The notes under the pieces were generated by a model. It was not told where the DNA came from. It worked only from the letters and a program-made list of their open reading frames with translations, and ran no database searches. DNA of 64,000 nt, taken from a bacterium (GTDB taxonomy: Bacteria > ARS69). Positions 1,044-42,787 of the stretch are shown here, piece by piece. Position 1 is the stretch's first letter; each line of letters starts with the position of its first letter. Position numbers and translations under genes: made by a program. The stretch lies in the NCBI GenBank assembly GCA_046330135.1, contig JAXLTI010000003.1:1128221-1192220 (forward strand), written 5' to 3'.

Positions 1044-1046
1044 CCG

Positions 1047-1640: not shown

Positions 1641-1651
1641 GAGGCGCCAGG

Positions 1652-2945: not shown

Positions 2946-4212
2946 TCTTGGATTCCTCCGAAAGGGGTTCGCGCTGGGCCTCGCGACACTGGTTCTGGCC
3001 GCGCCGATCGCGGGGTCCGCACGTCCCACGATCGACACGACCGGCATGGCGCCCATCAACGTCGACGTGCAGAACGCCACGGTCGCGTCGGTGCTGCGCA
3101 TGTTCCACGAGTTCTCCGGCCGCAACATCATCGCGGGGCCGGAGGTCACGGGGACGATCACCGCGAAGCTGGACACCGTGCCGTGGCTCGTGGCCATGGA
3201 CACGGTGCTGCGCGCGAACGGATTCGCTTGGGAGGAGGACTCCCAGGGCATCATCCGCGTCTCGACCGTCGACAAGCTGCAGACCGAGCGGTTGAACGAG
3301 GCGGTCTCGGACCGGAAGCGCGAGGACTTCCTGCCGCTCGACACGTCGGTGGTGCAGGTGAGCTACGCCAAGGCCGAGGAAATGAAGAAACCGCTCGAGA
3401 TCCTCCTCTCCGGCCGCGGCAAGATCGAGACCGACGAGCGCACGAACGCGCTCATCATCACGGACATCGATCCGCGGATCGCCCGCGTGAAGGACATGGC
3501 GAAGATCCTCGACTACAAGACGCCGCAGGTCGAGATCAACGCGAAGCTCGTGGACGTCGACGAGCGCGCGGCCCGCGATCTCGGCATCAAGTGGGACGTG
3601 AAGGGTCTGAACAAGGGCGATGCGGCCGTGGACTACTCGGTCGACGCGTCGCTCGCGCAGAAGGTGGGCACCGTCGACCTGTCGCTCACCGGCACGGACG
3701 CCGACTTCACGGCCACCCTCGACGCGCTCGAGCGCCAGGACAAGGCGGAGATCATCTCGAACCCGCGGATCACGACGGCCGACAACAAGGAAGCCCGGAT
3801 GATCGTCGGCAAGAAGATCCCGCTCATCGTGTCCGACGCGGCCGGCAACCCGATCACCCAGCTCACGACGATCGGCATCAAGCTGACCGTGGTGCCGCAC
3901 ATCAACCAGGATGATCGCGTGACGCTCGACCTCAACCCCGAGGTCTCGGATCTGTCGTCGCAGGCGACCGTCCAGGGCGGCATCGTGATCGTCACGTCCG
4001 AGGCGAGCACGCGCGTGATCGTCCAGGACGGCCAGACCGCCGTGATCGGCGGCCTCATCCGCACCAACGAGTCGACCGTCGATCAGGGCGTGCCCGTGCT
4101 CATGGACATCCCGGTCGTCGGCAACCTGTTCAAGAGCACCGACAAGGTGAAGGAGAAGCGCGAGCTGCTCATCTTCGTGACGCCGCGCATCATCCGACCC
4201 GACGCGGGCTAG
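2938..4212 (+). CDS. pilQ: Type IV pilus secretin PilQ
   Basis: Signal peptide, secretin N domains, C-terminal secretin domain ending ...RELLIFVTPRIIRPD. Confidence 0.85.
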   Translation: MVSLGFLRKGFALGLATLVLAAPIAGSARPTIDTTGMAPINVDVQNATVASVLRMFHEFSGRNIIAGPEVTGTITAKLDTVPWLVAMDTVLRANGFAWEEDSQGIIRVSTVDKLQTERLNEAVSDRKREDFLPLDTSVVQVSYAKAEEMKKPLEILLSGRGKIETDERTNALIITDIDPRIARVKDMAKILDYKTPQVEINAKLVDVDERAARDLGIKWDVKGLNKGDAAVDYSVDASLAQKVGTVDLSLTGTDADFTATLDALERQDKAEIISNPRITTADNKEARMIVGKKIPLIVSDAAGNPITQLTTIGIKLTVVPHINQDDRVTLDLNPEVSDLSSQATVQGGIVIVTSEASTRVIVQDGQTAVIGGLIRTNESTVDQGVPVLMDIPVVGNLFKSTDKVKEKRELLIFVTPRIIRPDAG

Positions 4213-16446: not shown

Positions 16447-16660
16447 GCGGCGCTTCGCACGCGCTGGGCGACTCGCTTCGTCGGCCGGAGTCACATCCGC
16501 TCAAAGGCGGCTCGCGGAGCCCACCGCTGCGCACTTCGGGACGACGCGTCCCTCGGCAGGGGGCCGCCGCGCCGCTTCGGCCCGTTCCCATTCGGTCGAC
16601 CTGCGCGTATGCTAGATGCCGACATCCCCCCTCATCCGGCCGTTCACCGAGGAGTCCTCC

Positions 16661-19288
16661 ATGGGACCGCTCCACCGAACCGCCCTCCTGGCCACGGTCG
16701 CCGTCGCCGGCGCCGCGGCCGTCTTCTTCGTCCGCCCGGCCCAGTTTCGCGCCGGGTCGTCCGCGGGCCTCCCCGCAGGAGTCCGCCCCGCCGCGGAGAG
16801 CCCCGAGGTGGAAGGCCAGGGTGAGGACCACGCCTGGGAGATGTTCGAGTGGTGGTACGGCCAGCGCGCGTATCCCAACGACCTGATCCCGCAGCAGGGC
16901 TTCTGGAACGCCTGGCAGACGCGCTCGCACATGACGGTGGACGAAGGCACGCTCCGATCGGCCACCTGGACGTCCATCGGACCGGACAACGTGGGCGGAC
17001 GGATGCTCGCCGTGGCGGTGGACCCGTCGAACTCGTCGCGCGTGTGGGCCGGCGCGGCCAGCGGCGGGCTGTGGCTCTCCACGACCGGCGGCGTGGGCGC
17101 GGCGGCCTGGAACCGCGTCGAGACGGGCTTCCCGTCGGTCGCGGTCAGCGGCATCGCCATCGACCCCACGAACCCGCAGAAGATGGTCATCGGGACCGGC
17201 GAGATCGGCCGGTACCAGAACGGGCAGGTCGGCACGCCGGGCGCGCGCAGCAGCTACGGCCTCGGCATCCTCCGCAGCACGGACGGCGGCACCACGTGGC
17301 TCGCCACCGGGTTGACCTGGACCTTCGACCAGCGTCGCGCGGTGCAGGCGGTCCGCATGGACCCGACCGCTCCGGCGAACGTCTGGGCCGCCACCACCGA
17401 AGGAGTCTTCCGCAGCACGGACGGCGGCGACACGTGGGCGCAGAAGAGCGCCGTGGTCATGGCCATGGACGTGATCGTGGATCCCACGAACGGGCAGATC
17501 GCGTACGCGTCGCACGGGCAGCTCGGCGTCCCGGACGACACGCAGGCCGGCATCTGGAAGACCACGAACGCCGGCACCACCTGGACGCGCCTCGCCGGCG
17601 GCCTTCCCACCACGAGCTTCGGCCGCACCGCGCTGGCGATCTCCTCGGATGCCGCACGCATCTGGGCCGGCGTGTCCAACGCGTCCACCCGTCAGATCGT
17701 GGGCCTGTACCGCTCCACGAACGGCGGCACGAACTGGACGAGCGTCAGCTCCACGAACTGGGCCAGCTCGCAGGCGTGGTACGACAACGTCACGGCGGTC
17801 TCGCCCACGAACTCGAACCTCGTGATCTGCGCCGGCCTCGACGTTTACCGCTCCACCACGGGCGGCGGGAGCCTCGCCCACGTCTCCGACTGGTCCGCCG
17901 GCTACGAAGGCGACGTGCCCGCGGGCGGCCCCGAGGGCCCTGCCAACTACGTGCACGCGGACTCGCACTGGTGCACGTTCGATCCGTCGAACCCCGCCAC
18001 GGTGTACATCGCGTGCGACGGCGGCATCTTCAAGTCCACCGACTCCGGCGCCACGTGGACCGGGGCGAACGGCGGCCTGCGCTCGAGCCAGTTCTACGCG
18101 GGCTTCGCGTTCCAGGCGAACGACCACGCGCTCGGCGGGCTGCAGGACAACGGCACGCTGCTCTACCACGGCGCCGATTCGTGGAACAAGACGTTCGGCG
18201 GCGACGGCGGCTGGTGCGCCATCGACCCGACCACGCCGAACACGCTCTACGAGGAGTACGTGTACTTGAACATGTACAAGAGCACCGACAACGGCGCGAG
18301 CTGGAACGAGGCGCACGTGTACAGCAGCTCCACCGCGAACTTCATCGCGCCGTTCGTCCTGTCGCCGTCCAGCCCGAACATCCTCTACGCGGGCGAGCTC
18401 GCCGTGGAGAAGTCCACGGACGGCGGCACGAGCTGGAACTTCGGGGGCGGCGGCTCGAACTGGAACGGCACGCCCGTGGCCACGATCGGCGTGTCGTTCG
18501 GCGATGCGAACCGCGTCGTGGCCGGAACGGGCAGCTCCACGGGCACGATCGAGATCCGCCGGACCACGAGCGGCGGCACCACGTGGACGGCCGCCACCGG
18601 ATACCCGGCGCGCTATCCCACGGACTTCGCGTTCGACCCGTCGAACAACGACGTCGTGTGGGCCACGTTCTCGGGCTACGGCACGGGCCACGTCTTCCGC
18701 TCCACGGACGTCGGGCTCACGTGGGTGAACGTCTCGGGGAACCTCCCGGACCTCCCGCACCAGACCGTCGCCGTGGATCCGCTCAATCCGGCGTGGGCGT
18801 ACGTGGGCACGGACCTCGGCGTCTACCGCACGACGGACGGCGGCACGAGCTGGACGATCTACGACGTGGGCATGCCGCCGGCCATGATCCTCGACCTCGC
18901 GATCTCCTCCGCGCGACGCATGCGCGCGGCCACGTTCGGCAACGGCGTCTGGGAGATCGACCTGCCCACGGCGTCCACGGGCGTCGCGGTGGCGTCGAGC
19001 GAGCGGCGCAGCGCGCTGGCGTTCGAGGCGAGTCGGCCGAATCCGTTCCGGGCTCAGACGTCCATCCGGCTCGCTCTCCCCAAGGAAGCGGACGTGAGCC
19101 TCACCGTCCTGGACGCGGCGGGGCGCCGCGTGCGCACCCTCGTGAACGGCCGTCACGCGGCCGGGTCGCTCGAGGTGGCCTGGGACGGGCGGGATGAAGG
19201 GGGCCGTCGCGTGGCGGCCGGCACCTACTTCGTCCGCGCCACCGGTGCCGGGCAGATCGCCGCCACCAAGGTCACCGTGCTCCAGTAG
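16661..19288 (+). CDS. Secreted BNR/Asp-box repeat protein (sortilin/GH74-like beta-propeller) with T9SS-type C-terminal sorting domain
   Basis: Signal peptide MGPLHRTALLATVAVAGAAA preceded by GAGGAG. About 10 S-x-D-x-G-x-T-W BNR motifs. C-terminus PNPF...LTVLDAAGRRVRTLVNG...AGTYFVRA matches the Por_Secre_tail/FlgD-Ig-like consensus. Confidence 0.75.
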   Translation: MGPLHRTALLATVAVAGAAAVFFVRPAQFRAGSSAGLPAGVRPAAESPEVEGQGEDHAWEMFEWWYGQRAYPNDLIPQQGFWNAWQTRSHMTVDEGTLRSATWTSIGPDNVGGRMLAVAVDPSNSSRVWAGAASGGLWLSTTGGVGAAAWNRVETGFPSVAVSGIAIDPTNPQKMVIGTGEIGRYQNGQVGTPGARSSYGLGILRSTDGGTTWLATGLTWTFDQRRAVQAVRMDPTAPANVWAATTEGVFRSTDGGDTWAQKSAVVMAMDVIVDPTNGQIAYASHGQLGVPDDTQAGIWKTTNAGTTWTRLAGGLPTTSFGRTALAISSDAARIWAGVSNASTRQIVGLYRSTNGGTNWTSVSSTNWASSQAWYDNVTAVSPTNSNLVICAGLDVYRSTTGGGSLAHVSDWSAGYEGDVPAGGPEGPANYVHADSHWCTFDPSNPATVYIACDGGIFKSTDSGATWTGANGGLRSSQFYAGFAFQANDHALGGLQDNGTLLYHGADSWNKTFGGDGGWCAIDPTTPNTLYEEYVYLNMYKSTDNGASWNEAHVYSSSTANFIAPFVLSPSSPNILYAGELAVEKSTDGGTSWNFGGGGSNWNGTPVATIGVSFGDANRVVAGTGSSTGTIEIRRTTSGGTTWTAATGYPARYPTDFAFDPSNNDVVWATFSGYGTGHVFRSTDVGLTWVNVSGNLPDLPHQTVAVDPLNPAWAYVGTDLGVYRTTDGGTSWTIYDVGMPPAMILDLAISSARRMRAATFGNGVWEIDLPTASTGVAVASSERRSALAFEASRPNPFRAQTSIRLALPKEADVSLTVLDAAGRRVRTLVNGRHAAGSLEVAWDGRDEGGRRVAAGTYFVRATGAGQIAATKVTVLQ

Positions 19289-19471: not shown

Positions 19472-20056
19472 ATGACGCTGCGCACCGCCTCGCTCGGGAT
19501 CCTCCTCGCTCTCACCGTCGCTGCGCCGCCCCCTTCCCGGGCGGAGGACAATCCGCCGCCCGCCGCGGAAGGCGCCTCGCGCGCCAAGGCGCCAGGCTTC
19601 CACGTGGTCGACGTCAAGGGCGACAAGGTCTCCCTCGACGATCTCCTGGGGAAGGGCCCGGTCGTCATCGACTTCTGGGCGACGTGGTGCAAGCCGTGCA
19701 TCAAGGAGCTGCCGTACCTGCAACGGATCCTCGATCAATACGGGAAGAGAGGCGTGCAGGTGTGCGCGGTCACCATCGACTCGCCGAAGTCGCAGAGCCA
19801 GGTGAAGAAGTTCGTCGACACGCGCAACTACACGTTCCGCGTGCTGATGGACGGGGACCAGGAGGTCTTCCACAAGCTCCAGGGCAAGGGCTCCATCCCG
19901 TACGTGGTCGTGCTCGACTCGCAGGGCTTCATGCGGTTCCAGCACACGGGCTACGTGCCCGGGAACGAGAAGGAGATCGAGCGCGTGGTCGTGGAGCTGC
20001 TCGGCGGAGCGGGAGAGGCCCCTCAGGCGGAGGCCACGCCCGACACCACGAAGTGA
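19472..20056 (+). CDS. Secreted TlpA/ResA-like thiol-disulfide oxidoreductase (thioredoxin fold)
   Basis: Signal peptide, then DFWATWCKPC CxxC active site. Confidence 0.8.
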   Translation: MTLRTASLGILLALTVAAPPPSRAEDNPPPAAEGASRAKAPGFHVVDVKGDKVSLDDLLGKGPVVIDFWATWCKPCIKELPYLQRILDQYGKRGVQVCAVTIDSPKSQSQVKKFVDTRNYTFRVLMDGDQEVFHKLQGKGSIPYVVVLDSQGFMRFQHTGYVPGNEKEIERVVVELLGGAGEAPQAEATPDTTK

Positions 20057-21621
20057 GCCGGCGCCCGGGCCGCCCGACCGGCGGACGAAGGGGGCGCGCC
20101 GGGGCGTTCGCGATCGCATTCCTCACGGCGTCCGCGGCCGGCCTCGCCCGCGCCGACGACGACGCATCCACGCTCCGCATCAGCGCCACGGACAAGCTCG
20201 AGTACCGCCGCTTCGCCCACGAAGGCGTGCGCGAGGAGGCCTTCCGCAACCGGCTCGAGGTCTCCGGCTACCAGGGCATCTTCTCGGCGTGGCTCCGCCT
20301 CGAATCCCTGGAGCTCTCCAACGCCGCCGTGTACGACCCCTACGCCGTGGCGAAGACCGGCGTCACCGGCGAGCAGCGCATCGATCAGACCGAGGTCACG
20401 AAGCGGCTCTTCGGCGTGGAGACCGAGCACTTCCGCGTGCAGGCCGGCGACGTGTCGAACGTCTTCGGCCGCGGCCTCGCCATGTCGGTGTTCGAGGACG
20501 AGGAGCTGAACTTCGACACGCGCCTCGAAGGGGTCCGCGCGCGCGGAGAGAACGACCTCGGCGCCGCGACGGTCGTGGCCGGAAGCCAGCTCGGCAACCG
20601 CTTCCGGGGCGTCTTCGTGGAGCCGCGTCCGTTCGACCTCCGTGGTCCGTGGCCGAAGGCCCGCGCGCGGGTGGGCGGGAGCTTCGTGGAGGCGTGGGGC
20701 GCCACGGCGAACACGGACATCCTCCCGCGCGAGCAGCAGTCGGGCGGGCTCGCGGAGCTCGTGGTCGGGCCGGCCACGGTGTACGGCGAGTGGGTGGAGC
20801 GGGAATTCCCGGGGAAGGACGGGCTCGGCCACCTCGGAAAGCCGGGGCACGGCGGGTTCTTCTCGGGCGAGGTCACCACGCACGGCGTGACCTTCTCCGC
20901 CGAGCACAAGGACTTCTACCGCTTCGAGCACAAGTACCACGATCCGCCCACGACGTTGCGCCAGCACACGTGGACGAGCCTCCTGCGCGTGAACGGGCAG
21001 ATCCTCTCCGACATTCCCGACGACGACGTGAACGGGACGTTGCTCCAGGCCGAGTGGGCGCCGGGGACGTTCACGTCGTTCCTCGGGAGCTGGGCGCAGC
21101 TGGACAAGGACGTGGGCTCGGACCGTTTCCGCGAGGTCTATGGCGAAGCGAAGACCACGTGGCGGGAGAAGGTCTTCCTGACGGGTGCCGCCGCGGACTC
21201 CCGGGCCCACCTCGGGACCCAGCACGAGGAGCGGATCACCGGCCTCGGGGAGGACGTCATGCACCTCGACGACGTCAACAGCATCACCCTCGAGGGCGAG
21301 TGGGCGGAGGTGAAGCGTTTCGATGACACCACCTTCCGGTTCCAGGACCCCCGCAGGTTCCACGACCGGATCTTCGCGATCTCCTACGGCCGCTCGCCGT
21401 GGCTCGATCTCACGGTGACTCGCGAGGATACGGACGAAGGCGCGGCCACGGAGCCCCGCAGCGTCTGGGGCAACGTGATCGCGGAGATCAACGTGGCGGA
21501 CGGCCACGACGTCGTTCTGAGCTACGGGTCCGAGCGCGGCGGGTGGAAGTGCACGGGCGGAGTGTGCTTCTATGAACCGGAGTTCGAAGGGATGAAGATC
21601 AAATGGGTCGGTCGCTTCTAG
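20053..21621 (+). CDS. Predicted outer-membrane beta-barrel protein
   Basis: GTG overlapping the tlpA-like stop. Signal peptide AFAIAFLTASAAGLARA. Amphipathic beta-strand periodicity. C-terminal ...KIKWVGRF with terminal Phe. The track's 645-aa ORF from 19684 overlaps the tlpA-like gene and is an artifact. Confidence 0.5.
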   Translation: MSRRPGRPTGGRRGRAGAFAIAFLTASAAGLARADDDASTLRISATDKLEYRRFAHEGVREEAFRNRLEVSGYQGIFSAWLRLESLELSNAAVYDPYAVAKTGVTGEQRIDQTEVTKRLFGVETEHFRVQAGDVSNVFGRGLAMSVFEDEELNFDTRLEGVRARGENDLGAATVVAGSQLGNRFRGVFVEPRPFDLRGPWPKARARVGGSFVEAWGATANTDILPREQQSGGLAELVVGPATVYGEWVEREFPGKDGLGHLGKPGHGGFFSGEVTTHGVTFSAEHKDFYRFEHKYHDPPTTLRQHTWTSLLRVNGQILSDIPDDDVNGTLLQAEWAPGTFTSFLGSWAQLDKDVGSDRFREVYGEAKTTWREKVFLTGAAADSRAHLGTQHEERITGLGEDVMHLDDVNSITLEGEWAEVKRFDDTTFRFQDPRRFHDRIFAISYGRSPWLDLTVTREDTDEGAATEPRSVWGNVIAEINVADGHDVVLSYGSERGGWKCTGGVCFYEPEFEGMKIKWVGRF

Positions 21622-22841
21622 CCCTCGCAGCGGTCCTCTTCGTGGCGTCCTCCTGCTTCGAGGACGTGCCCCCGCCCACGCAGGGGTTCATCGAGATCGG
21701 CACCGGCGGCGTGTCCGGCGCGGAGGTGTTCCTGGACGGCGTCTCGCAGGGCGCGGCCGAGAAGCTCGGTCCCCTGGAGGCGGGCACGTACACGGTGAGC
21801 GTGGCGAAGCCGTACTACGACGTGGCGCCGGCGGACCGCGAGGTCGTGGTGCAGCCCACGAAGACCGCGCGCGTGGACTTCGCGATGACGCTGGTCGTGG
21901 TCGGTGCGGCGCACGTGACCGCCACGGACGAGCTTCTCGGCGGCGCGGTCGACGGCGCGGCCATCTTCATCCTGGACGGCTCCGGCACGCCGCAGCCCAC
22001 CGGGGTCGTCACGGACGCGTCCGGCAGCGCAACCCTCGAGCGCCTGCCGCCCGGCCCCACGCGGTTCCTCCTGCGCAAGGACGGGTTCGCGGACACCTCG
22101 CCGATCGCGGAGGACGTGCAGCCTTTCAACACCATCGACGTGGCGGCGCAGCTCGGGCCGCCGCGGGCAGTCCTCCTGGAGATGTTCACGTACGTCGTGT
22201 GTCCGAACTGCCCGCCGTCCTCCGCCGAGATTCGCGGGATGTACCGGGACAACGCCGGCACGCTCTTCGCGATCGAGTGGCACAGCGTGGCCGGGCTGCC
22301 GCTTTACGACGCGCGCTGGCACACGCACGAGATCTACTACCGCGGCACCAACTTCAACGGATGGCCGGCGGTGGTGGTTCAGGGCGGGGCCAACGACAGC
22401 CCGGCCGTGCTCGTGGACAGCAACGCGTCGGAGCTGGCCCAGTATCACGCCCGATTCGAGGCGCAGCGCGGCGCTTGCTCGAACGACTGCCCCGTGGCCG
22501 TGAAGGCGACCGGCACCATCGATGCTCTGGCCGCCACCTTCACGGTCCGTGTGAAGTGGCGGGGCGGCTCGTTGCCGGGCAACCTCGTGCTGCGGACCGC
22601 GTTGATCCAGCAGCTCGTGTCCGCTCCGGGGAACGACTCGCCCTACGACTTCGTGGCGCGCGATCTTCACGAGGAAGCGCTCACGTTGACGACGCCGGGC
22701 CAGGTTGTGGAATTCCCAGAATCCTTCATCATCTCCGGCACTTGGAACGCCGACAAGATGGATCTCGTGTCATACGTGCAGTCCGATGACACGCACGAGA
22801 TTCTGGCCGTTTGGGGGACGCGTCGTGTGACGCTCCCGTGA
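21603..22841 (+). CDS. Lipoprotein with thioredoxin-like CxxC (CPNC) module; Cys-containing paralog of the two downstream TGA-containing genes
   Basis: Lipoprotein-type signal (LFVASSC). Internal LLEMFTYVVCPNCPPS aligns with the EEFGxxxUxYCPxA segment of the downstream paralogs. Further conserved blocks (FAIEWH ~ LVHIDWH; YYRGTNFNGWPAVVVQGGAN ~ YYGVPAVPDVFFDGGNN). No T9SS CTD. Confidence 0.6.
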   Translation: MGRSLLALAAVLFVASSCFEDVPPPTQGFIEIGTGGVSGAEVFLDGVSQGAAEKLGPLEAGTYTVSVAKPYYDVAPADREVVVQPTKTARVDFAMTLVVVGAAHVTATDELLGGAVDGAAIFILDGSGTPQPTGVVTDASGSATLERLPPGPTRFLLRKDGFADTSPIAEDVQPFNTIDVAAQLGPPRAVLLEMFTYVVCPNCPPSSAEIRGMYRDNAGTLFAIEWHSVAGLPLYDARWHTHEIYYRGTNFNGWPAVVVQGGANDSPAVLVDSNASELAQYHARFEAQRGACSNDCPVAVKATGTIDALAATFTVRVKWRGGSLPGNLVLRTALIQQLVSAPGNDSPYDFVARDLHEEALTLTTPGQVVEFPESFIISGTWNADKMDLVSYVQSDDTHEILAVWGTRRVTLP

Positions 22842-22971: not shown

Positions 22972-23736
22972 ATGAGACGGGCATTGGCAATCCTTGTGTT
23001 GGTCGCGGTCGTCACGATGGTTGGATGGTTCGGCGCGCCTTCGAACGCGCTCGCCTACGGGTACACGATCACGCCGCTCGGCTCGCTGACGCAGAGCTGG
23101 CCCGAGATCGACTTCACCGGGCCGTATTTCTACTTCCTGCTGAGGAACACAGCGGCGGTGGCGGACTCCTTCCATCTGGAGATCCAGAATCTCATCGTGT
23201 CGCCCGTGCCGCCGCAGGGCTACGAGTGGTTCCCGCAGGTCTGCTTGCGGCAGATCTGCTTCCCGGACAGCACCACGCTGCGCTTCGAGGCGGGTGTGCA
23301 GGACACGATCGGTGTGGACCTGGTCCCCTTCACCGACGGCGTCGGCAACGCGGACTTCGTCATGCACTCCGTGGGGAATCCGGCGCTCAACAGCACGTTC
23401 CATCTGAGGCTCTACGCGGGTACCGCGGCGGTGGGAGCGGGCATGCCGCCGAGCATCCCCACGCTGCAGCTCTCTCAGAGCGCACCGAATCCCGCGACCG
23501 GCCGCACCCGGATCCCGTTCATCCTGCCGCGCGAGGGACGCGCCACGCTGCGCGTCTACGACGCCGCAGGCAGGCTCGTCGAGACGCTCGTGGACGGAAC
23601 GCTCGCGGCCGGCGCGCACTCGGCCGAATGGACCGCTCGCACGGCGAGCGGGCAACTGCTGCCGGCGGGCGCGTATTTCTATCGCCTGGAGACTCCTCGC
23701 GGGTCTCTCTCGCGCAGCTTGATCCTGATTCGATGA
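22972..23736 (+). CDS. Small secreted protein with T9SS-type C-terminal sorting domain
   Basis: Signal peptide. C-terminus PNPATGRTRIPFILPREGRATLRVYDAAGRLVETLVDGTLAAGAHSAEW...GAYFYRLE. Confidence 0.6.
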   Translation: MRRALAILVLVAVVTMVGWFGAPSNALAYGYTITPLGSLTQSWPEIDFTGPYFYFLLRNTAAVADSFHLEIQNLIVSPVPPQGYEWFPQVCLRQICFPDSTTLRFEAGVQDTIGVDLVPFTDGVGNADFVMHSVGNPALNSTFHLRLYAGTAAVGAGMPPSIPTLQLSQSAPNPATGRTRIPFILPREGRATLRVYDAAGRLVETLVDGTLAAGAHSAEWTARTASGQLLPAGAYFYRLETPRGSLSRSLILIR

Positions 23737-23799: not shown

Positions 23800-25812
23800 G
23801 TGAGAGCGAAGTGGTTAGCGCCGGTTCTGCTCGTGATCGGCTTCGTGATGATGGCGGTTCCCGCCTTCGCGGGGGTGCAGCGCACCACGATGGTGGAGGA
23901 GTTCGGGTATTTGTCTTGACCGTACTGCCCCTGGGCCCGTGCGGCCCTTCGGAACGTCGAGCTCGCCTACCCGAATGACGATCAGCTCGTCCACATCGAC
24001 TGGCATACGTCTGACGCCCTGGCGAACGGCTCGGGCGCAACACGTGCTAACTACTACGGCGTCCCGGCCGTTCCTGACGTGTTCTTCGACGGCGGCAACA
24101 ACGTTCTCGGCGCAGGCGACTCGGTGAGTGCCTACAGCGACTTCAGACCGCGCGTGGACGCCGCCTACGCGGTGCCCTCGAAGCTCATTATCAGCGCTCA
24201 GCTCGACCTGAACTCGAGCACGATGCTAGCCACAGTCACCACGGACGTGACTGTGGCGCCCGGCGAAACGATCGGGACACCGAGCGCCTGTAAGGTCCGC
24301 GCGGCGTTGACCGAGGACAACATCGTCAGGTGCTGCGAGCCCCACACCGGGCACCTGACTTGGAACTACATCTCTCGCGCGATGGTCTTCGAGGTTCCGC
24401 TCACCGACTCGCTTTCGGGCCAGACGCAGCACATCGTGCAGACGTTCCCGATCGACCCGTCGTGGAACATCCGGAACCTGCACGCGGCGGTGTGGGTCCA
24501 GCGCGACACGAACAAGAACATCCTCCAAGCGGCGAACGCCACGGTGGCGTACGAAGCCGTCCTCACGGATCTCGACCCCATCGTGGCGAAGGTCACGTCG
24601 GGGCCGAGCACCTTCGACGACCAGGTCACGAACACGGGCACGTTCAGCGATGACGTGACCCTGACGCTCGACGAGTCCACGCTGCCCTCTGGTTGGAGCG
24701 CGGACATCGTCTACAACTCGACGGTCTACCCGTCGACCGTCACGATCCCGAACATGGCGCATGGCCAGGTGGAGAACGTGAGCGTGCGTGTCACGCCGAA
24801 CGGACCCGGGGAGGGAACCGTTGCGCTCATCGCGGCGCCGTTCCACAACTCCACGTGGACGAACGTGCACCCGTACCACACGTTCTCGCAGACGCCGGCG
24901 ATCCTCTTCGTGGACGACGACAACGGCGCGTCCTTCGAAGGGAAGTACCAGAACGCGATCACCGGCGCCGGCTACTGGTCCGTGACGCAGACGGTGTCCA
25001 CGCAGGGCAATCCGCTCGCGAGCTACATCAACCTCTTCGACGCGCTCGTCTGGAACACCGACTCGCTCCAGACGAACACGATCGGCACGGCGCTCCAGAC
25101 CACGCTCATGAGCTACATGGACGGCGGCGGGAAGCTCTTCCTCGTCAGTCAGGGGATCCTGAACGAGCGCGGGCTCACGCCGATGGTCACGGGCTACCTC
25201 CGCGTGAGCGCGTTCACGCCGGACGTGGGCGGGGCGAGCGCGACCGGCCTCGCGGGGGATCCGATCGGGGACGGTCTGAGCTTCGCGGTCAGCCCGCCGT
25301 TCGTGAACAAGGCCGACGCGGTCACGCCGAACACCGGTGGCGTGGCTTGGTTGGACGCGGGCTTGAACCATGTGGCCGTGCGGTACGACTCGGGCGTCTA
25401 CCGGACGGTCTTCATGACGGCGCCCTTCGAGGGGATCGCGACACCCACGGATGCCACGGTGATGAAGCGGGTGCTCGACTGGCTCGTGCCGAACGACATC
25501 ACCGCGGTTCCCCCGGTGGCGGGACGGGACGAGAGCGGGCTGGCCCTCTGGCAGAACGCTCCCAACCCCTTCAGCGGCACCACCTCGTTGCTCTTCTCGA
25601 TGCCCCAGGCCGGGCACGCTCGCCTCACCGTCTACGACGTCGCGGGCCGCCGGGTGGCGAGCCTCGTCGATCGTCAGCTCGAGGCGGGGGCGCACTCGGT
25701 TGTCTGGGACGGCCGGGACGTGACCGGGGCGCGCACCGCGAGCGGGGTTTACCTGGTCCGCCTCACCGCGAACGGCCGGACGGTCAGCCGGGAGATGGTG
25801 CGGGTGAAGTAA
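23800..25812 (+). CDS. Putative secreted selenoprotein, paralog 1: thioredoxin-like U-P-Y-C module, large uncharacterised domain, T9SS C-terminal domain. In-frame TGA at 23917..23919 read as Sec
   Basis: GTG start 9 nt after AGGAG. Signal peptide VRAKWLAPVLLVIGFVMMAVPAFA|GVQ lies upstream of the TGA. The frame stays open from the TGA into the 577-aa ORF listed in the track. UxxC aligns with CPNC of gene 21603. C-terminus matches the T9SS CTD (NPFSGTTSLLFSMPQAGHARLTVYDVAGRRV...GVYLVRL). Confidence 0.6.
23933..23947 (+). promoter_or_regulatory. Putative bacterial SECIS hairpin, paralog 1
   Basis: GGGCC-CGUGC-GGCCC. Lies 13 nt downstream of the UGA. Loop identical to that of paralog 2. Confidence 0.5.
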
Positions 25813-26059: not shown

Positions 26060-28096
26060 GTGAGAGCAAGGTCCCTCACGAAGGTCCTTTTCCTCCTCCT
26101 CGGCGCCGTGCTCTTCGCCGCGCCCGCTCTGGCGACAGTCCAGCGGACGATGCTCGTCGAAGAGTTCGGCTGGTGGAATTGAACGTACTGCCCCTACGCC
26201 CGTGCGGCGTTGCGGATGACGGAACGGCAGGACTACCCCGACAAGACCCAGCTCGTCCACCTCGACTGGCACTTCAACGACGCGGTGCTCGGTAACCCCA
26301 GCTCGACGGCGCGCGCCCAGTACTACGCCGCGAACTCCGCTCCCGACGTCTGGTTCGACGGCAGCCAGCACGTCGTCGGCGCCGGCGACTCCGTGGGGAC
26401 GTACAACACGTACAAGCCGATCCTCGCGGCGCACTACATCGATCCGTCGCAGCTGCTCGTGTCGGTGACGCTCGATCTGAACTCGATCACGTTGACCGGT
26501 ACGTCCACGGTGAACGTCCAGGTGGCGCCGGGGGAGACCATCAACCTCCCCTCCAACTGCAAGATCCGGTGCGCGCTCTACGAAGACGCGGTGCCCCTGG
26601 GCGGCGGCAGAACGGAGCCGCACACCGGGAACACCACCATGAACTACATCGCCCGGCTGATGATCACCGAGACCACGCTCACGGCGACGAACTCGGGCGA
26701 TACCCAGCAGGTGGTGACGAACTTCAGTATCGATCCGACGTGGAAGATCCAGGATCTGCACGCGGTGGCATTCGTTCAGCGCGATACGAACAAGAAGGTG
26801 CTGCAGGCGGGCTTCTCCCCGGCGCAGTACCAGGTTCTCGTGTCCGATCTCGGTACCCCCGTGGCGCGGGTCAACAGCGGTGCCAAGGACTTCAACTCCC
26901 AGGTCCTGTACCAGGGCACCGTCAACGACGACGTGCTGCTGACGCTCGACAAGTCGGCCCTGCCCGTCGGATGGGACGCTGCGATCGTGTGGAACGGCAA
27001 CTCGTACCCCACGACGCTCACGATCCCGAACATGACGAAGGACCAGCAGGAGGCGATCACGGTCCGCGTGACTCCGTCGGCCCCGGGGATGGGGACGGTG
27101 GGATTCTCCGTGGAGCCCGTGTCGCTGCCGCCGGCCGCGCAGAATCACAGCTACATCACGTTCTACCAGCGGCCGAAGCTGCTCTTCGTGGACGACGACA
27201 ACGGCGCCCACCTGGAGACGTACTACCAGAATGCGCTCGCCAGCGCCGGCTACTTCGCGCTCGGACACGACGTCGCAGCCCTCAACGGAGCCACTCCGCC
27301 GGTGAGCTGGATGTCGAACTTCGACGCCGTCATCTGGAACACGGATTCGCTCCAGGTGCTGACGCTCGGCGGACCGCAGCAGGCTGATCTCATCAGCTAT
27401 CTGGACGGCGGCGGCCGGCTGTTCCTCTGCAGCCAGGGATTCCTGAACGATCGCGGGCTCGTGGCCCTCACCACGAACTACCTCCGGGTGAGCGCGTTCA
27501 CCCGGGACGTAGGTGCTCCGACCGTCACGGGCGTCGCCGGAGACCCGATCGGGGACGGCATGAGCTTCGCCGTCACCCCGCCCTTCACCAACCTGGCGGA
27601 TGCGTTGACGCCGGGCGTGGGGGCGGCGCCGTGGCTGGACTCGGGCGCGAATCACGTCGCCATGCGCTACGACAGCGGCGTCTTCAAGACCGTGCTCCTG
27701 ACCGCGCCGTTCGAGGGCATCGCTGCGCCCAACGACGCGCTGGTCATGCAGCGCGTGCTCCAGTGGCTCGTGCCGGATACGGCCACGGATGCTCCGGTGA
27801 TCGGTGGGCAGGTGGCGGGCGGTCTGGCGTTGTTCCAGAACGTCCCGAACCCGTTCAGCGGCACCACGTCGCTGCGCTTCTCGCTGCCGGCGGCCGGCCA
27901 CGTGGGCCTGGCCATCTACGACGTCGCGGGTCGCCGCGTGGCGAGCCTCGTCGATCGCAGGCTGGAAGCGGGCACGCACTCGTTCGATTGGGACGGGCGT
28001 GACGTCACGGGCGCGCGGGTCGCGAGCGGCGTGTACCTCGTCCGTCTCAAGGCCGGCAACGAAACCGTCAGCCGCGAGATGGTGCGGGTGCACTAG
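26060..28096 (+). CDS. Putative secreted selenoprotein, paralog 2: U-T-Y-C module, large uncharacterised domain, T9SS C-terminal domain. In-frame TGA at 26180..26182 read as Sec
   Basis: GTG start after AGGAG. Signal peptide VRARSLTKVLFLLLGAVLFAAPALA|TVQ is listed in the track as a separate 79-aa ORF ending at the TGA. That ORF is in frame with the 628-aa ORF beginning 9 codons later. T9SS CTD at the C-terminus. Confidence 0.6.
26196..26210 (+). promoter_or_regulatory. Putative bacterial SECIS hairpin, paralog 2
   Basis: ACGCC-CGUGC-GGCGU. Lies 13 nt downstream of the UGA. Two stem base pairs covary relative to paralog 1 (G-C to A-U, G-C to C-G). Confidence 0.5.
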
Positions 28097-31380: not shown

Positions 31381-31562
31381 TCCGGGCGCTGGCCGGCCCG
31401 GGCCGCGCCGCCGGCAGCCCTGTTCGGGCGGCAGCCCTGTTCGGGAACGCCGCATGCCCGGCCCTCGCGGGCCATCCGCTCCAGCGTCGCCCTCGCCTTG
31501 TTCGTGCTCGGGGACGGTGTTACCCTGTCCCGCCCCTTCCATTGCGCGAGGCGGAGGTTTCC

Positions 31563-34235
31563 GTGGCGGAGCCCAAGATCCACGAGCTCCCGAAGGCGTA
31601 CGAGCCGGCGGCCGTCGAGGAGCGGATCTACGGCTTCTGGGAGGCCGGCGGGCACTTCCACGCGGACCCGCGCTCGTCGAAGCCCCCGTTCACGATCATG
31701 ATCCCGCCGCCCAACGTGACCGGCGTCCTCCACATGGGGCACGCCTTGAACAACACGTTGCAGGACATCGTGATCCGGCACCGTCGCATGGCCGGGTTCG
31801 AGGCGCTCTGGCTGCCCGGCACCGATCACGCCGGCATCGCCACGCAGGCCGTGGTGGAGAAGCAGCTCTACAAGGAGTTCGGGCTCACGCGCGAATCGAT
31901 GGGCCGCGAGGCGTTCGTCGGCGAGATCTGGAAATGGCGGGAGCGGCACGGGGACGCCATCCTCCGTCAGCTTCGCCGCCTCGGCTGCTCGTGCGACTGG
32001 TCGCGGACGAAGTTCACCCTCGACGACGACATGAGCCGCGCGGTGGCCACCGCCTTCGTGCGCCTCTGGGAGCGCGGGCTCGTCTACCGCGGCGCGCGGC
32101 TCGTGAACTGGGATTGCACGCTGCGCACCGCCGTCTCCGACGACGAGATCGAGTACGTGCCGCGGCGCGGCAAGCTCTGGTACGTCCGCTATCCGGTGCG
32201 CGGGGAGGAAGGTCGCTTCATCACCGTGGCCACCACGCGGCCGGAGACCATGCTCGGCGACACGGGCGTGGCGGTGCATCCGGGCGACGAGCGCTGGAGC
32301 AGCTTCATCGGCAAGACCGTGTTGCTGCCGCTGCTGGATCGGCCCATTCCCGTGGTGGCGGACGAGACGGTGGAGACCGCGTTCGGCACGGGCGCGGTGA
32401 AGGTGACGCCGGGCCACGATCCCGCGGACTACGACCGCGGGCAGCGCTTCGGCCTGCCCATCGTGAGCCTGTTCGAGCCGGACGGGACGCTCGGCGAGGC
32501 GGCGGGCCCGTATCGCGGGCAAACGCGCGAGGGCGCGCGCGAGCGGATCGTGGCGGACCTCGAGGCGCGCGGGCTCCTGGAGAAGGTGGAGGAGATCGAG
32601 CACAACGTGGCCGTGTCGGACCGCTCGCGGGACACGATCGAGCCGTTGATCTCGGAGCAGTGGTTCGTGCGCATGAAGGAGATCGCCGGGCCCGCCATCG
32701 AGGCGGTGAAGTCCGGCCGGCTCAAGATCGTCCCGGAGCGCTGGGCGAAGGTGTACCTGGACTGGCTCGAGAACGTGCGGGACTGGTGCATCTCGCGGCA
32801 GCTCTGGTGGGGCCACCGCATCCCCGTGTGGTACGACGAGGACGGAGTGCCCGCCGCCTCCGCGCTGCCGCTCGCGCGCGGCTCGCCGCACCCGAAGACC
32901 GGCAAGCGCATCGTGCGCCAGGACGACGACGTGCTGGACACGTGGGCGTCCAGCTGGCTGTGGCCCTTCGCCACGCTCGGCTGGCCGGAGCGCACCGCGG
33001 ATCTCGCGCGCTTCTATCCCACGCAGTTCCTGAGCACCGCGCGGGAGATCATCTACCTGTGGGTGGCGCGCATGGTGATCGCGGGCTACGAGCTGCTGGA
33101 CTTCCTCCCGGAGGACCAGCGCTGCCCGTTCTCCACTTGTTACATTCACGCCACGGTGCTCGACACGCAGGGCCGGCGGATGTCGAAGAGCCTGGGCAAC
33201 GGCATCGACCCGATCGAGATGATCGACAAGTACGGCGCGGACGCGGTGCGCTACTCGCTCGTGACGCTCACCCGCGAGGGCCAGGACGTGAAGCTGGCGG
33301 AGAACCGCTTCGAGCTGGGCCAGCGCTTCTGCAACAAGATCTGGAACGCGGTGCGCTTCGCCCTCGCCAACCTGGACGGCGTGCCGCAGGGGCCGCTCGG
33401 CGAGACGCTCGAGGATCGCTGGATCCTCTCGCGCACGCGGCGCGCGATCCGCGAGGTGGAGTCGTCGCTCACGGAGTACCGCTTCCACGACGGCGCCGCG
33501 GAGCTGTACCGCTTCTTCTGGAACGACCTGTGCGACTGGTACCTCGAGGTCGCGAAGCGCCGGCTGGCGCCCGGCGCGAGCGAGTCGGATCGGGAGGCGG
33601 CGCGCGCCACGCTGGCGCGGGTCCTCTCCGCCACGATCCGCATGCTGCATCCGTATCTTCCGTTCGTGACCGAGGAGCTGTGGAGCTACCTGCCGGGGAC
33701 GGACGGCGCGCTCGTGGTGGCCCCGTGGCCGGACGCGGACGCGTTCCGCGCGGACGAGGCCGCGGAGGCGGACTTCGAGCGGCTGCGCGAGACGGTCTCG
33801 GCGGTGCGGAACCTGCGCAGCTCCATGAACGTGCCGCCGAGCGCCACGGTGCGCCTGCTGGTGCACTCGGACGACGCGGACCTCGCGCGCGTGCTCGCCG
33901 AGACGTCGGAGCTGGCCACGGCGCTCGCGCGGCTGTCGGAGGTGACGGTGGGCCCGAGCGTCGCGAAGCCGAAGAGCGCGGCCAGCGCGGTGGTGCGCGG
34001 GGGAACGGTCTGGGTGCCGCTCGAGGGCGTCATCGACCTCGACGTCGAGCGCGAGAGGCTGCGCCGCGAGAACGAGCGCCTGGAGAACCTGGTCTCGGGC
34101 GCCACGCGGAAGCTCGGCAACGCGGACTTCGTGTCCCGCGCGAAGCCCGAGATCGTGGACCGCGAGCGGGAGAAGCTCGCGAGCCTGAAGACCGACCTGG
34201 ACCGCGTAACCGCCGCGCTCGCGGACCTGGAGTAG
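31563..34235 (+). CDS. valS: Valyl-tRNA synthetase
   Basis: GTG after GGAGG. HIGH motif (HMGHALN). KMSKS motif (RMSKSLGN). C-terminal coiled coil. Confidence 0.9.
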   Translation: MAEPKIHELPKAYEPAAVEERIYGFWEAGGHFHADPRSSKPPFTIMIPPPNVTGVLHMGHALNNTLQDIVIRHRRMAGFEALWLPGTDHAGIATQAVVEKQLYKEFGLTRESMGREAFVGEIWKWRERHGDAILRQLRRLGCSCDWSRTKFTLDDDMSRAVATAFVRLWERGLVYRGARLVNWDCTLRTAVSDDEIEYVPRRGKLWYVRYPVRGEEGRFITVATTRPETMLGDTGVAVHPGDERWSSFIGKTVLLPLLDRPIPVVADETVETAFGTGAVKVTPGHDPADYDRGQRFGLPIVSLFEPDGTLGEAAGPYRGQTREGARERIVADLEARGLLEKVEEIEHNVAVSDRSRDTIEPLISEQWFVRMKEIAGPAIEAVKSGRLKIVPERWAKVYLDWLENVRDWCISRQLWWGHRIPVWYDEDGVPAASALPLARGSPHPKTGKRIVRQDDDVLDTWASSWLWPFATLGWPERTADLARFYPTQFLSTAREIIYLWVARMVIAGYELLDFLPEDQRCPFSTCYIHATVLDTQGRRMSKSLGNGIDPIEMIDKYGADAVRYSLVTLTREGQDVKLAENRFELGQRFCNKIWNAVRFALANLDGVPQGPLGETLEDRWILSRTRRAIREVESSLTEYRFHDGAAELYRFFWNDLCDWYLEVAKRRLAPGASESDREAARATLARVLSATIRMLHPYLPFVTEELWSYLPGTDGALVVAPWPDADAFRADEAAEADFERLRETVSAVRNLRSSMNVPPSATVRLLVHSDDADLARVLAETSELATALARLSEVTVGPSVAKPKSAASAVVRGGTVWVPLEGVIDLDVERERLRRENERLENLVSGATRKLGNADFVSRAKPEIVDREREKLASLKTDLDRVTAALADLE

Positions 34236-39974: not shown

Positions 39975-39978
<4 letters not shown>
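38485..39978 (-). CDS. nuoM: NADH-quinone oxidoreductase subunit M
   Basis: Antiporter-like subunit. Start approximate (about VILLVLILILLAAG). Confidence 0.7.
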
Positions 39979-41950
<1,972 letters not shown>

Positions 41951-41951
<1 letters not shown>

Positions 41952-42768: not shown

Positions 42769-42787
42769 TCGGTTCCTCCCGCGCCCG

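What the first reader, a model, noticed from the sequence alone, without database searches (positions are those of the whole stretch)
21603..22841. Cys-containing paralog (CPNC) of the Sec module with a different architecture and localisation
Gene 21603..22841 has a lipoprotein-type signal peptide and no T9SS CTD. Its central region aligns block by block with the N-terminal roughly 230 aa of the two UGA genes (LLEMFTYVVCPNCPPS vs VEEFGYLSUPYCPWA; FAIEWH vs LVHIDWH; YYRGTNFNGWPAVVVQGGAN vs YYGVPAVPDVFFDGGNN; SGTWNADKMDLVSYVQSDD vs DPSWNIRNLHAAVWVQRDT). This places a Cys exactly where the others have UGA. One locus therefore holds a Cys/Sec pair within one protein family, with the shared module placed in three domain contexts. 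This defines a conserved thioredoxin-like module that I cannot assign to a named family.
Basis: seen in the sequence. Interest (0 to 1): 0.6.

Follow-up and report, generated by a model that had tools for sequence, protein, structure and literature searches.

The report
Cysteine lipoprotein partner of secreted selenoproteins
This gene encodes a membrane-anchored protein with a thioredoxin-type redox domain from the already named Omp28/HBP35 family; it always uses cysteine and sits in a conserved gene cluster beside exported relatives that use selenocysteine, so it is a new variant of a known kind and not a new family.

Summary
Gene 21603..22841 encodes a 412-aa lipoprotein with no T9SS C-terminal domain. 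Residues 186-405 are homologous to the N-terminal ~230 aa of two downstream genes that carry an in-frame UGA (23917, 26180). BLASTP gives 2e-9 and 9e-10; hhalign gives 9.4e-28. Cys200 aligns with the UGA codon.

New here: the lipoprotein is a conserved, always-Cys partner in a cluster of TlpA-like redoxin, DUF6029 barrel, lipoprotein, small T9SS protein and T9SS Sec protein(s). All four core components occur together in 12 loci from Eiseniibacteriota-like, Krumholzibacteriota and Ignavibacteriales MAGs, and 20 UGA genes occur in 14 genomes. A covarying hairpin follows the UGA.

Most likely function: an envelope thiol-disulfide oxidoreductase, possibly linking periplasmic TlpA to the surface selenoproteins. 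That relay is inferred, not shown.

The parts
21603..22841 (+). Target gene: a 412-aa lipoprotein made of PEGA, CarboxypepD_reg-like, thioredoxin-fold (CPNC) and Omp28-type beta-sandwich domains.
   Evidence: ORF and translation. Pfam and NCBIfam hits. AlphaFold2 model with mean pLDDT 89.8. The identical protein is in NCBI as 'MAG: PEGA domain-containing protein [bacterium]'.
21603..21656 (+). Lipoprotein signal peptide ending in lipobox VASS-C18.
   Evidence: Read directly from the sequence. Cys18 is nearly invariant, and [AGS]-C is kept in 19 orthologues and in distant orthologues in L010-L013 and L066.
21681..22154 (+). Two N-terminal beta-sandwich domains: PEGA (aa 27-97) and CarboxypepD_reg-like (aa 101-184).
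22158..22475 (+). Thioredoxin/glutaredoxin-like fold (aa 186-291) with topology b1-a1-b2-a2-b3-b4-a3.
22200..22211 (+). C200-P-N-C203 motif; Cys200 aligns with the UGA (Sec) codon of genes A and B.
   Evidence: Alignments. C200 and C203 are invariant in 20 orthologues.
22365..22367 (+). Pro255, at the position of the thioredoxin-fold cis-proline before strand 3.
   Evidence: Invariant across all 18 diverse module sequences (P70 of alignment A6) and across the 20 orthologues.
22476..22490 (+). Second cysteine pair C292-x3-C296 (CSNDC) at the junction of the thioredoxin fold and the beta-sandwich.
   Evidence: Invariant in the 20 Eiseniibacteriota-type orthologues. Absent from genes A and B and from the Krumholzibacteriota-type orthologues. 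Role unknown.
22494..22817 (+). Omp28-type Ig-like beta-sandwich (aa 298-405).
19472..20056 (+). TlpA-like periplasmic thiol-disulfide oxidoreductase (WCKPC), the first redox gene of the cluster.
   Evidence: Pfam AhpC-TSA 1.7e-24 and Redoxin 4.6e-20. Syntenic in 12 loci. Its stop overlaps the next gene's start (GTGA).
20053..21621 (+). DUF6029 outer-membrane beta-barrel ending in ...KWVGRF; its 3' end overlaps the target's start by 19 nt.
   Evidence: Pfam PF19494 at 5.7e-15, above its cut-off. Coding-frame plot. Synteny. Overlap with the target.
22972..23736 (+). Small (254 aa) protein with a T9SS CTD and an uncharacterised N-terminal domain; a conserved member of the cluster.
   Evidence: FlgD_ig hit at 4.7e-10. 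Found between the lipoprotein and the Sec gene in L001, L002, L004, L007 and L008, and immediately upstream of the Sec gene at the cut start of L003; also present in L010 and L012.
23800..25812 (+). Gene A: a T9SS-exported Omp28-like selenoprotein candidate (UPYC) with UGA at 23917..23919.
   Evidence: Pfam Omp28 scores 37.0 bits, above its 34.9 cut-off. TIGR04183 scores 33.6, above its cut-off of 23. The public annotation is N-terminally truncated at 562 aa (P0021).
23931..23949 (+). SECIS-like hairpin of gene A (CUGGGCC-CGUGC-GGCCCUU); the stem region starts 11 nt after the UGA codon, with the five core pairs from +13.
   Evidence: Across 11 sequences, 80.5% of cells are paired. The covariation score is 0.392 against 0.159 for shuffles (0 of 500 as high), and slid controls score 0.17 or less.
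26060..28096 (+). Gene B: a paralogue of gene A (57% identity, same architecture, UTYC) with UGA at 26180..26182.
26194..26212 (+). SECIS-like hairpin of gene B (CUACGCC-CGUGC-GGCGUUG); two pairs change on both sides relative to gene A.

Best explanation
Gene 21603..22841 encodes an envelope lipoprotein. Its C-terminal half is an Omp28/HBP35-type module: a glutaredoxin-like thioredoxin fold with a redox-active C200-P-N-C203 motif, fused to an Ig-like beta-sandwich. Two N-terminal PEGA/transthyretin-like sandwiches act as a stalk.

It is not an incidental paralogue. It is the conserved, always-cysteine component of an envelope redox gene cluster with this order: TlpA-like periplasmic redoxin, DUF6029 outer-membrane barrel, this lipoprotein, a small T9SS protein, then one to three T9SS-exported proteins that carry the same module with Sec (UxxC) or, in some lineages, Cys.

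Proposed mechanism (inferred). The lipoprotein is a thiol-disulfide oxidoreductase anchored at the outer membrane. TlpA would supply reducing equivalents from the periplasm. The lipoprotein, probably associated with the co-translated DUF6029 barrel, would exchange disulfide or selenylsulfide bonds with the T9SS-delivered selenoproteins or with their substrates. Those selenoproteins would perform the more demanding surface redox chemistry, as described for surface-anchored HBP35, which has thioredoxin activity.

Shown here: homology, fold, motif conservation, the Cys/Sec alignment, synteny and gene overlaps.

Inferred only: catalytic activity, direction of electron flow, physical partners and final topology.
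For: Homology of the modules:
- BLASTP gives 2e-9 and 9e-10.
- The shuffle control rules out a compositional match.
- hhalign gives E 9.4e-28.

Fold:
- The AlphaFold2 model (pLDDT 89.8) places the CxxC at the N-terminus of helix 203-216 in a b-a-b-a-b-b-a fold, followed by a beta-sandwich.
- The Cys-form relative of genes A and B (P0044) also has HBP35 as its top hit.
- The module profile hits the thioredoxin 1fo5 and HBP35 at the sequence level.

Catalytic signature:
- E193, C200, C203 and P255 are invariant across 18 diverse module sequences and 20 orthologues.
- Sec occupies the C200 position in 20 genes from 14 genomes. Sec is expected only at catalytic redox sites (established knowledge).

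UGA is read as Sec, not as a general sense codon:
- TGA ends 23 of 36 window genes.
- A covarying hairpin follows the UGA.
- Public homologues are called starting just after the UGA.

Operon and synteny:
- The TlpA stop overlaps the DUF6029 start, and the DUF6029 end overlaps the target's start by 19 nt.
- No plus-strand terminator was found in 19000-28600.
- All four core components occur together in 12 loci spanning Eiseniibacteriota-like, Krumholzibacteriota, 'Fibrobacteraceae'-labelled and Ignavibacteriales MAGs.
- Distant orthologues are all lipoproteins with two PEGA-like domains and a CxxC, including in L011 and L066, where the regex scan found only Cys-form T9SS-type modules.

Precedent: HBP35 is a T9SS cargo anchored on the cell surface whose thioredoxin activity depends on its two cysteines (PMC2907840).
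Against: - No biochemical data exist for any member of this subfamily.
- The target scores below the curated cut-offs of Pfam Omp28 (17.7 against 34.9), NF033782 (16.9 against 150) and NF045500 (46.5 against 200).
- Omp28 itself is annotated as an adhesin or receptor, and the physiological role of HBP35's thioredoxin domain is unknown (PMC2907840).
- A periplasm-to-surface relay needs contact across the outer membrane, and nothing here shows that.
- The lipoprotein's topology, periplasmic face or surface, is unknown.
- Several loci with the T9SS-type module lack TlpA and DUF6029 within the fetched flanks (L014, L016, L019, L020 and L081).
- No Sec-insertion genes and no tRNA-Sec lie in the window or in the 17 loci scanned for tRNAs.
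Confidence: 0.62

Rival explanations
1. Selenium-independent backup isoenzyme. The Cys gene would do the same job as the Sec genes and be used when selenium is scarce, like the Cys/Sec paralogue pairs of methanogen hydrogenases and formate dehydrogenases.
For: The module is the same, with Cys exactly at the Sec position, and the gene is adjacent in the same locus. Cys-form versions of the long T9SS architecture exist elsewhere (P0044, P0053, P0055).
Against: - Identity between the modules is only 24-25%, and the architecture and sorting signal are entirely different.
- The lipoprotein is retained in L011 and L066, where only Cys-form T9SS-type modules were found, so it is not a replacement for the Sec form.
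- It overlaps the upstream cluster genes (TlpA, DUF6029), which suggests co-expression with them; there is no sign of a separate Se-regulated unit.
Confidence: 0.1
2. A non-catalytic surface protein. The module would act as an adhesin or a ligand binder (haem or metal), with the CxxC being structural or a metal ligand. Omp28 is annotated as an adhesin/receptor, and HBP35 binds haemin.
For: The closest structures are HBP35 and Omp28. HBP35's haemin binding maps to the region after the thioredoxin motif, M135-P344 (PMC2907840). PEGA and transthyretin-like domains are typical of surface proteins. An extra invariant CxxxC pair, C292/C296, could bind a metal.
Against: - The CxxC, the proline at the cis-Pro position and their placement at the helix N-terminus are invariant over very divergent sequences.
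- The paralogues substitute Sec at the attacking position, which points to catalysis rather than a structural role.
- A dedicated TlpA-like redoxin is a conserved neighbour.
- HBP35's histidines proposed for haem binding were not examined and are not evidently conserved.
Confidence: 0.18
3. The similarity is a compositional or low-complexity artefact of a 70% GC genome, and the Cys/UGA alignment is coincidental.
For: Pairwise identity is low (24-25%) and the window is GC-rich.
Against: - BLASTP E-values with composition-based statistics are 2e-9 and 9e-10.
- Shuffles reach at most 25.8 bits, against 42.4 observed.
- hhalign gives E 9.4e-28.
- Two independent structure models both have HBP35 as the top hit.
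Confidence: 0.01

Closest known systems
HBP35 (35-kDa haemin-binding protein, PGN_0659) of Porphyromonas gingivalis; PDB 5Y1A
   Different: The target has a lipoprotein anchor instead of a CTD, two extra N-terminal sandwiches and only about 16% identity. Genes A and B use Sec and carry an extra beta-sandwich and an alpha/beta domain. Haemin binding was not tested here.
Omp28 outer-membrane lipoprotein family (Pfam PF11551, NCBIfam NF033782; PDB 2R2C)
   Different: The target scores below both curated cut-offs (17.7 against 34.9, and 16.9 against 150). It has an N-terminal PEGA/CarboxypepD_reg extension and is about 150 aa longer than a 28-kDa Omp28.
NCBIfam NF045500, 'Omp28-related selenoprotein'
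   Same: It is the best-scoring NCBIfam model for all three proteins and for 16 of 18 module sequences. By its name, it is an Omp28-type family that contains Sec. Whether its Sec sits at the CxxC position could not be checked here, because the model consensus was not visible.
   Different: The scores of 46-58 bits are far below the 200-bit cut-off, so none of the three is a member of that equivalog. The target has Cys. The T9SS architecture and the cluster context are not part of that model's definition, as far as can be seen here.
DUF1223 (PF06764; Atu2684, PDB 2AXO)
   Different: It is a proteobacterial family of unknown function. The solved protein is about the size of the module alone (222 residues modelled). 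It has no known link to this gene cluster.
TlpA/ResA/DsbE-type periplasmic reductant pathways (CcdA/DsbD to TlpA to client)
   Same: A TlpA-like redoxin (WCKPC) is the conserved first redox gene of the cluster. From established knowledge, TlpA-type proteins keep specific envelope clients reduced, which is the logic proposed here.
   Different: The known clients are cytochrome c maturation factors and Sco/CoxB. An Omp28-type lipoprotein or T9SS selenoproteins as clients have not been described. No CcdA/DsbD gene was seen in the cluster.

Membership tests
Thioredoxin-fold superfamily | b-a-b-a-b-b-a core with CxxC at the N-terminus of helix 1 | tested here: met
   In the model, strand 190-196 is followed by C200xxC203 and helix 203-216, then strand 221-227, helix 237-247, strands 256-259 and 269-271, and helix 275-290. 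The profile hits 1fo5 thioredoxin at 4e-6.
Thioredoxin-fold superfamily | Conserved cis-proline loop before strand 3 | tested here: inconclusive
   Pro255 lies immediately before strand 256-259 and is invariant in alignments A1 and A6.
Omp28 (Pfam PF11551) | HMM score at or above the gathering threshold (34.9 bits) | tested here: not met
   The target scores 17.7 bits (E 0.0034). Gene A scores 37.0 and passes. Gene B scores 26.1 and fails.
Omp28 (Pfam PF11551) | Omp28-type beta-sandwich fold, as in PDB 2R2C | tested here: met
Omp28 family outer-membrane lipoprotein (NF033782) | Score at or above 150 bits, plus a lipoprotein signal | tested here: not met
   The score is 16.9 bits. The lipobox is present.
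Omp28-related selenoprotein (NF045500) | Score at or above 200 bits | tested here: not met
   The target scores 46.5, gene A 57.6 and gene B 45.8 bits. The best E-value among the 18 module sequences is 5e-21.
Omp28-related selenoprotein (NF045500) | Selenocysteine (in-frame UGA) in the redox motif | tested here: not met
   The target has TGC (Cys200). Genes A and B do have UGA there.
HBP35-like T9SS surface thioredoxin | Thioredoxin-fold CxxC domain followed by a beta-sandwich | tested here: met
HBP35-like T9SS surface thioredoxin | T9SS C-terminal sorting domain | tested here: not met
   The target has no CTD hit. Genes A and B do: TIGR04183 scores 33.6 and 31.9, above the cut-off of 23.
HBP35-like T9SS surface thioredoxin | Thioredoxin (insulin reduction) activity and haemin binding | not testable with these tools
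   These are biochemical assays, described for HBP35 in PMC2907840.
Bacterial lipoprotein | Signal peptide with a lipobox [LVI..][AST..][GAS]-C | tested here: met
   The sequence reads ...LFVASS-C18. The lipobox is conserved in the orthologues.
Bacterial selenoprotein (applies to genes A and B, the premise of the finding) | In-frame UGA aligned to Cys in homologues, with coding sequence conserved on both sides | tested here: met
   20 UGA genes in 14 genomes, aligned to Cys in P0044, P0053, P0055, the target family and L011, L016, L020 and L066.
Bacterial selenoprotein (applies to genes A and B) | SECIS hairpin immediately downstream of the UGA | tested here: met
   A hairpin starts 11-14 nt after the UGA with loop CGUGC. 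The pairs at alignment columns 17:31 and 18:30 change on both sides. The covariation score is 0.392 against 0.159 for shuffles, with 0 of 500 shuffles as high.
Bacterial selenoprotein (applies to genes A and B) | selA/selB/selC/selD present in the genome | not testable with these tools
   None lies in the 64-kb window or in the 17 loci scanned for tRNAs. The rest of the 1.3-Mb contig could not be read.

The most novel reading that the evidence does not exclude
The cluster could encode a trans-outer-membrane redox relay. Reducing power would pass from periplasmic TlpA to the always-Cys lipoprotein held in or on the DUF6029 barrel, and from there to T9SS-displayed selenoproteins on the cell surface. 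That would make it a dedicated system for extracellular selenol-based redox chemistry in Eiseniibacteriota, Krumholzibacteriota and their relatives, with the Cys lipoprotein as the obligatory adaptor.
Probability: 0.15. Interest if true: 0.75.

Novelty: new variant of a known kind. Interest (0 to 1): 0.42.

Why it matters
The finding itself, a Cys paralogue beside Sec genes, is ordinary for selenoprotein families, and the module it was thought to define already has names (Omp28, HBP35, DUF1223).

The follow-up adds three things.
- A domain architecture not captured by the curated Omp28 models: lipobox, two PEGA-like sandwiches and the thioredoxin-Omp28 module. It is conserved across several FCB-group phyla and never uses Sec.
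- A conserved gene cluster that ties this lipoprotein to a TlpA-like redoxin, a DUF6029 barrel of unknown function and T9SS-exported selenoproteins. My literature searches found no description of T9SS selenoproteins or of Omp28-type selenoproteins.
- A systematic annotation error. About 30 public homologues of the Sec genes are called N-terminally truncated, so they lose their signal peptide and active site.

If the cluster is a redox unit, it gives DUF6029 a testable role and gives the unexplained thioredoxin domain of HBP35 a physiological context.

Tried and rejected
- Rfam scan of the whole window at gathering thresholds: no hits, so no SECIS or other family was recognised.
- ARAGORN on the window and 17 loci: no tRNA-Sec.
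- Single-sequence MFE folding of the 64 nt after each UGA: z-scores near 0. The hairpin became convincing only in the comparative analysis.
- The Krumholzibacteriota-type downstream hairpin (loop CGUGU about 35 nt after the UGA) is almost invariant in sequence, so it gives no covariation evidence either way.
- phmmer of the target module against PDB sequences: nothing significant. A profile was needed.
- The search for related loci with the broad alignment A2 failed for lack of a conserved stretch. The narrower alignment A3 worked.
P0044, a natural Cys form with the same architecture, was modelled instead.
- The afdb50 fold library was unavailable.
- The promoter/terminator scan of 19000-28600 found no promoter-like site and only one minus-strand terminator-like site. 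This is weak evidence at 70% GC.
- The neighbourhood of the stand-alone Cys form P0055 shows no cluster genes, so the cluster is not universal for the module.
- A scan of the window for other in-frame UGA candidates found only gene junctions.
- Literature searches for Omp28 plus selenoprotein, Eisenbacteria plus selenocysteine, and selenoprotein plus type IX secretion found nothing relevant. The one DUF6029 paper only notes that HHpred links some Wzi-like porin homologues to DUF6029 (PMC9603273).
- I considered genome-wide UGA reassignment and rejected it, because TGA ends 23 of 36 window genes.
Full report
**1. What is at the coordinates**

The window is 70.5% GC. ORF 21603..22841 (+) starts with ATG, ends with TGA and has GC3 0.89, the signature of real genes here. 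The identical protein is in NCBI as 'MAG: PEGA domain-containing protein [bacterium]' on a 1.3-Mb contig. Its relatives come from Candidatus Eiseniibacteriota-type MAGs.

The N-terminus MGRSLLALAAVLFVASSC fits a lipobox, and Cys18 with [AGS] at position -1 is conserved in the orthologues. Pfam finds PEGA (38-93) and CarboxypepD_reg (106-177) above their cut-offs, and Omp28 (263-402) below its cut-off. NCBIfam's best model is NF045500, 'Omp28-related selenoprotein' (residues 188-403, 46.5 bits against a 200-bit cut-off). There is no T9SS CTD.

**2. The two UGA genes**

A scan for [C/U]xxC with in-frame TGA found EFGYLS-U-PYCPWA at 23917 and EFGWWN-U-TYCPYA at 26180. Both reading frames continue across the TGA from a GTG start (23800 and 26060) preceded by GAAAGGAG. 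A signal peptide comes first, and the proteins end in a FlgD_ig/TIGR04183 T9SS C-terminal domain. The two proteins are 57% identical end to end, so they have one architecture.

**3.

BLASTP with composition-based statistics aligns target 175-401 with gene A 15-242 (24% identity, E 2e-9). It aligns target 188-401 with gene B 29-248 (25% identity, E 9e-10). All four quoted blocks are reproduced, and Cys200 sits on the UGA position.

Shuffling the target module gives a mean of 14.8 bits and a maximum of 25.8, against 42.4 observed. A profile of 20 target orthologues against a profile of the long architecture gives probability 99.8% and E 9.4e-28 over 205 columns.

**4. Is UGA Sec?**

- TGA is the commonest stop codon in this window, ending 23 of 36 genes. 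UGA is therefore not generally reassigned.
- About 30 public homologues of gene A are called at 610-630 aa, starting immediately after the UxxC position. NCBI calls gene A at 562 aa. This is the usual artefact for selenoprotein genes.
- In 80 loci fetched from species-representative genomes, the same in-frame TGA occurs in L001-L005, L007-L010 and L012-L015. With the window's own two genes, that makes 20 UGA genes in 14 genomes. Cys occupies the position in L011, L016, L020, L066 and in P0044, P0053 and P0055.
- Eleven Eiseniibacteriota-type sequences share a hairpin starting 11-14 nt after the UGA, with loop CGUGC or CGGGC. 80.5% of cells are paired, two core pairs change on both sides (GC/AU/UA and CG/GC), and the covariation score is 0.392 against 0.159 for shuffles (0 of 500 as high). 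Slid controls score 0.17 or less.
- No sel genes or tRNA-Sec lie in the window or in the loci scanned for tRNAs. That part remains untested.

**5. What the shared module is**

The AlphaFold2 model of the target (pLDDT 89.8) shows two N-terminal sandwiches followed by a b-a-b-a-b-b-a thioredoxin/glutaredoxin-like fold. C200xxC203 sits at the N-terminus of helix 203-216, and Pro255 sits just before strand 3. An Ig-like sandwich (298-405) follows.

An alignment of 18 diverse module sequences leaves only E193, C/U200, C203, P255 and G261 invariant.

Foldseek also puts HBP35 first, both for the target and for a model of P0044, the natural Cys form of the gene A architecture.

At the sequence level, the module profile hits MJ0307 thioredoxin (4e-6), HBP35 (3.5e-5, aligning FTAEWCGYCP) and Atu2684 (2.6e-4). 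Of the 18 module sequences, 13 hit Pfam Omp28, 16 hit NF045500 and NF033782, and 2 hit DUF1223.

It belongs to a named superfamily, and a Sec-containing branch of that superfamily is already curated. None of the three proteins reaches the cut-off of the NCBIfam models, and only gene A passes Pfam's Omp28 threshold.

**6. Context**

The genes overlap or abut:
- The TlpA-like redoxin is at 19472..20056 (AhpC-TSA 1.7e-24, WCKPC).
- Its stop overlaps the GTG start of the DUF6029 barrel at 20053..21621.
- The last 19 nt of that barrel gene overlap the target's start.
- A small T9SS-CTD protein (22972..23736) follows, then gene A and gene B.
- No plus-strand terminator-like site lies in 19000-28600.

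The order GT9, TlpA, DUF6029, lipoprotein, small T9SS protein, Sec gene(s), GT2, TPR membrane protein is conserved in L001, L002, L004, L007 and L008. In L008 a sortilin-like T9SS gene is inserted before GT2, and in L004 GT2 lies about 7 kb further downstream. TlpA, DUF6029, a lipoprotein-type module and a T9SS-type module occur together in 12 loci. These include Krumholzibacteriota (L010, L012, L013), a 'Fibrobacteraceae'-labelled MAG (L011) and Ignavibacteriales (L066).

The distant orthologues of the target are again lipoproteins with two PEGA-like domains and a CxxC module. The lipoprotein is Cys in every case, including L011 and L066, where the scan found only Cys-form T9SS-type modules. 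That argues against a simple selenium-sparing backup role.

**7. Mechanism**

Shown here: a thioredoxin fold with an invariant active-site signature, Sec at the attacking position in the paralogues, a dedicated TlpA-like neighbour, and overlapping genes that suggest translational coupling to an outer-membrane barrel.

Established knowledge:
- TlpA-type proteins keep specific envelope clients reduced.
- HBP35 is a T9SS cargo anchored on the surface with cysteine-dependent thioredoxin activity whose physiological role is unknown (PMC2907840).
- Sec is used at catalytic redox positions.

Inference: the lipoprotein is an outer-membrane-anchored thiol-disulfide oxidoreductase that works with TlpA and the surface selenoproteins, possibly as the link between them via the DUF6029 barrel.

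The acidic residues after the lipid-modified Cys (CFED; CFDE/CFEE/CRDD in orthologues; CGSEPP/CGLEEP in distant ones) resemble the Bacteroidota surface-lipoprotein export signal. I recall that signal from memory, so this is a lead only.

**8. Rivals**

A haem- or metal-binding or adhesin role, as for HBP35 and Omp28, remains possible and is not exclusive. The extra invariant C292xxxC296 pair in Eiseniibacteriota-type orthologues is unexplained. The backup-isoenzyme idea and the compositional-artefact idea are disfavoured for the reasons given above.

**9. Novelty and score**

A Cys homologue beside Sec genes is normal, and the module has names, so the finding as written is less novel than it seemed. 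Three things appear to be undescribed in the searchable literature:
- the lipoprotein architecture;
- its strict use of Cys;
- the conserved TlpA-DUF6029-lipoprotein-T9SS selenoprotein cluster.

I rate it a new variant of a known kind, with interest 0.42. The relay reading has about 15% probability and would be substantially more interesting if true.

Noticed in passing
window 23800..25812 and 26060..28096: Public annotation truncates these genes. NCBI calls gene A as a 562-aa 'FlgD immunoglobulin-like domain containing protein' that starts far downstream of the UGA. About 30 homologue clusters start just after the UxxC motif, so they lose the signal peptide and the active site.
   Followed up: yes
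window 22972..23736: A small 254-aa protein with a T9SS CTD and an N-terminal domain that has no Pfam match and contains VCLRQIC. It is conserved between the Cys lipoprotein and the Sec gene in L001, L002, L004, L007 and L008, sits upstream of the Sec gene at the cut start of L003, and is also present in L010 and L012. Its role is unknown.
   Followed up: partly
window about 24862..25479 (gene A aa 355-560); L021-L023, L046, L069, L080: The alpha/beta middle domain of genes A and B (PAILFVDDDNG...FDAVIWNT...YLDGGG) has no Pfam hit. tblastn finds relatives of just this domain in archaeal MAGs (DHVE2, Methanomassiliicoccales, Thermoplasmatota). In the P0044 model it is a Rossmann/flavodoxin-like fold at residues 379-580.
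   Followed up: partly
window 22476..22490: A second cysteine pair, C292-x3-C296 (CSNDC), is invariant in the 20 Eiseniibacteriota-type lipoprotein orthologues. It is absent from the Krumholzibacteriota-type orthologues and from the Sec paralogues. It could be a structural disulfide, a second redox site or a metal site.
   Followed up: partly
window 34119..34207 (-): ARAGORN calls an 89-nt tRNA-Glu(ctc) here. The site lies inside the valyl-tRNA synthetase ORF (31443..34235, +; tRNA-synt_1 at 9e-126), where the coding-frame signal is uninterrupted. It is probably a false positive.
   Followed up: partly
L004, L010, L012, L015: Tandem duplication of the Sec gene recurs: there are two copies in the window, L004, L010 and L015, and three in L012. 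L015 has a divergent motif, U-G-P-C-A.
   Followed up: partly
L008 10365..12321: In this long-read MAG the Sec-gene homologue is split into several tblastn segments and has two extra in-frame TGAs in its first 245 codons. This points to assembly frameshifts or a decaying copy.
   Followed up: no
window 16616..19288: A sortilin/VPS10-BNR-like 890-aa T9SS cargo lies between GT9 and TlpA in this window. In L008 its homologue lies downstream of the Sec gene, so it is a mobile neighbour of the cluster and not a fixed part of it.
   Followed up: partly
window 3..4212 and 39975..51701: A pilM-N-O-(P)-Q type IV pilus assembly operon lies at the 5' end of the window. A nuo (NADH:quinone oxidoreductase) operon lies on the minus strand. 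Both are ordinary housekeeping context.
   Followed up: partly
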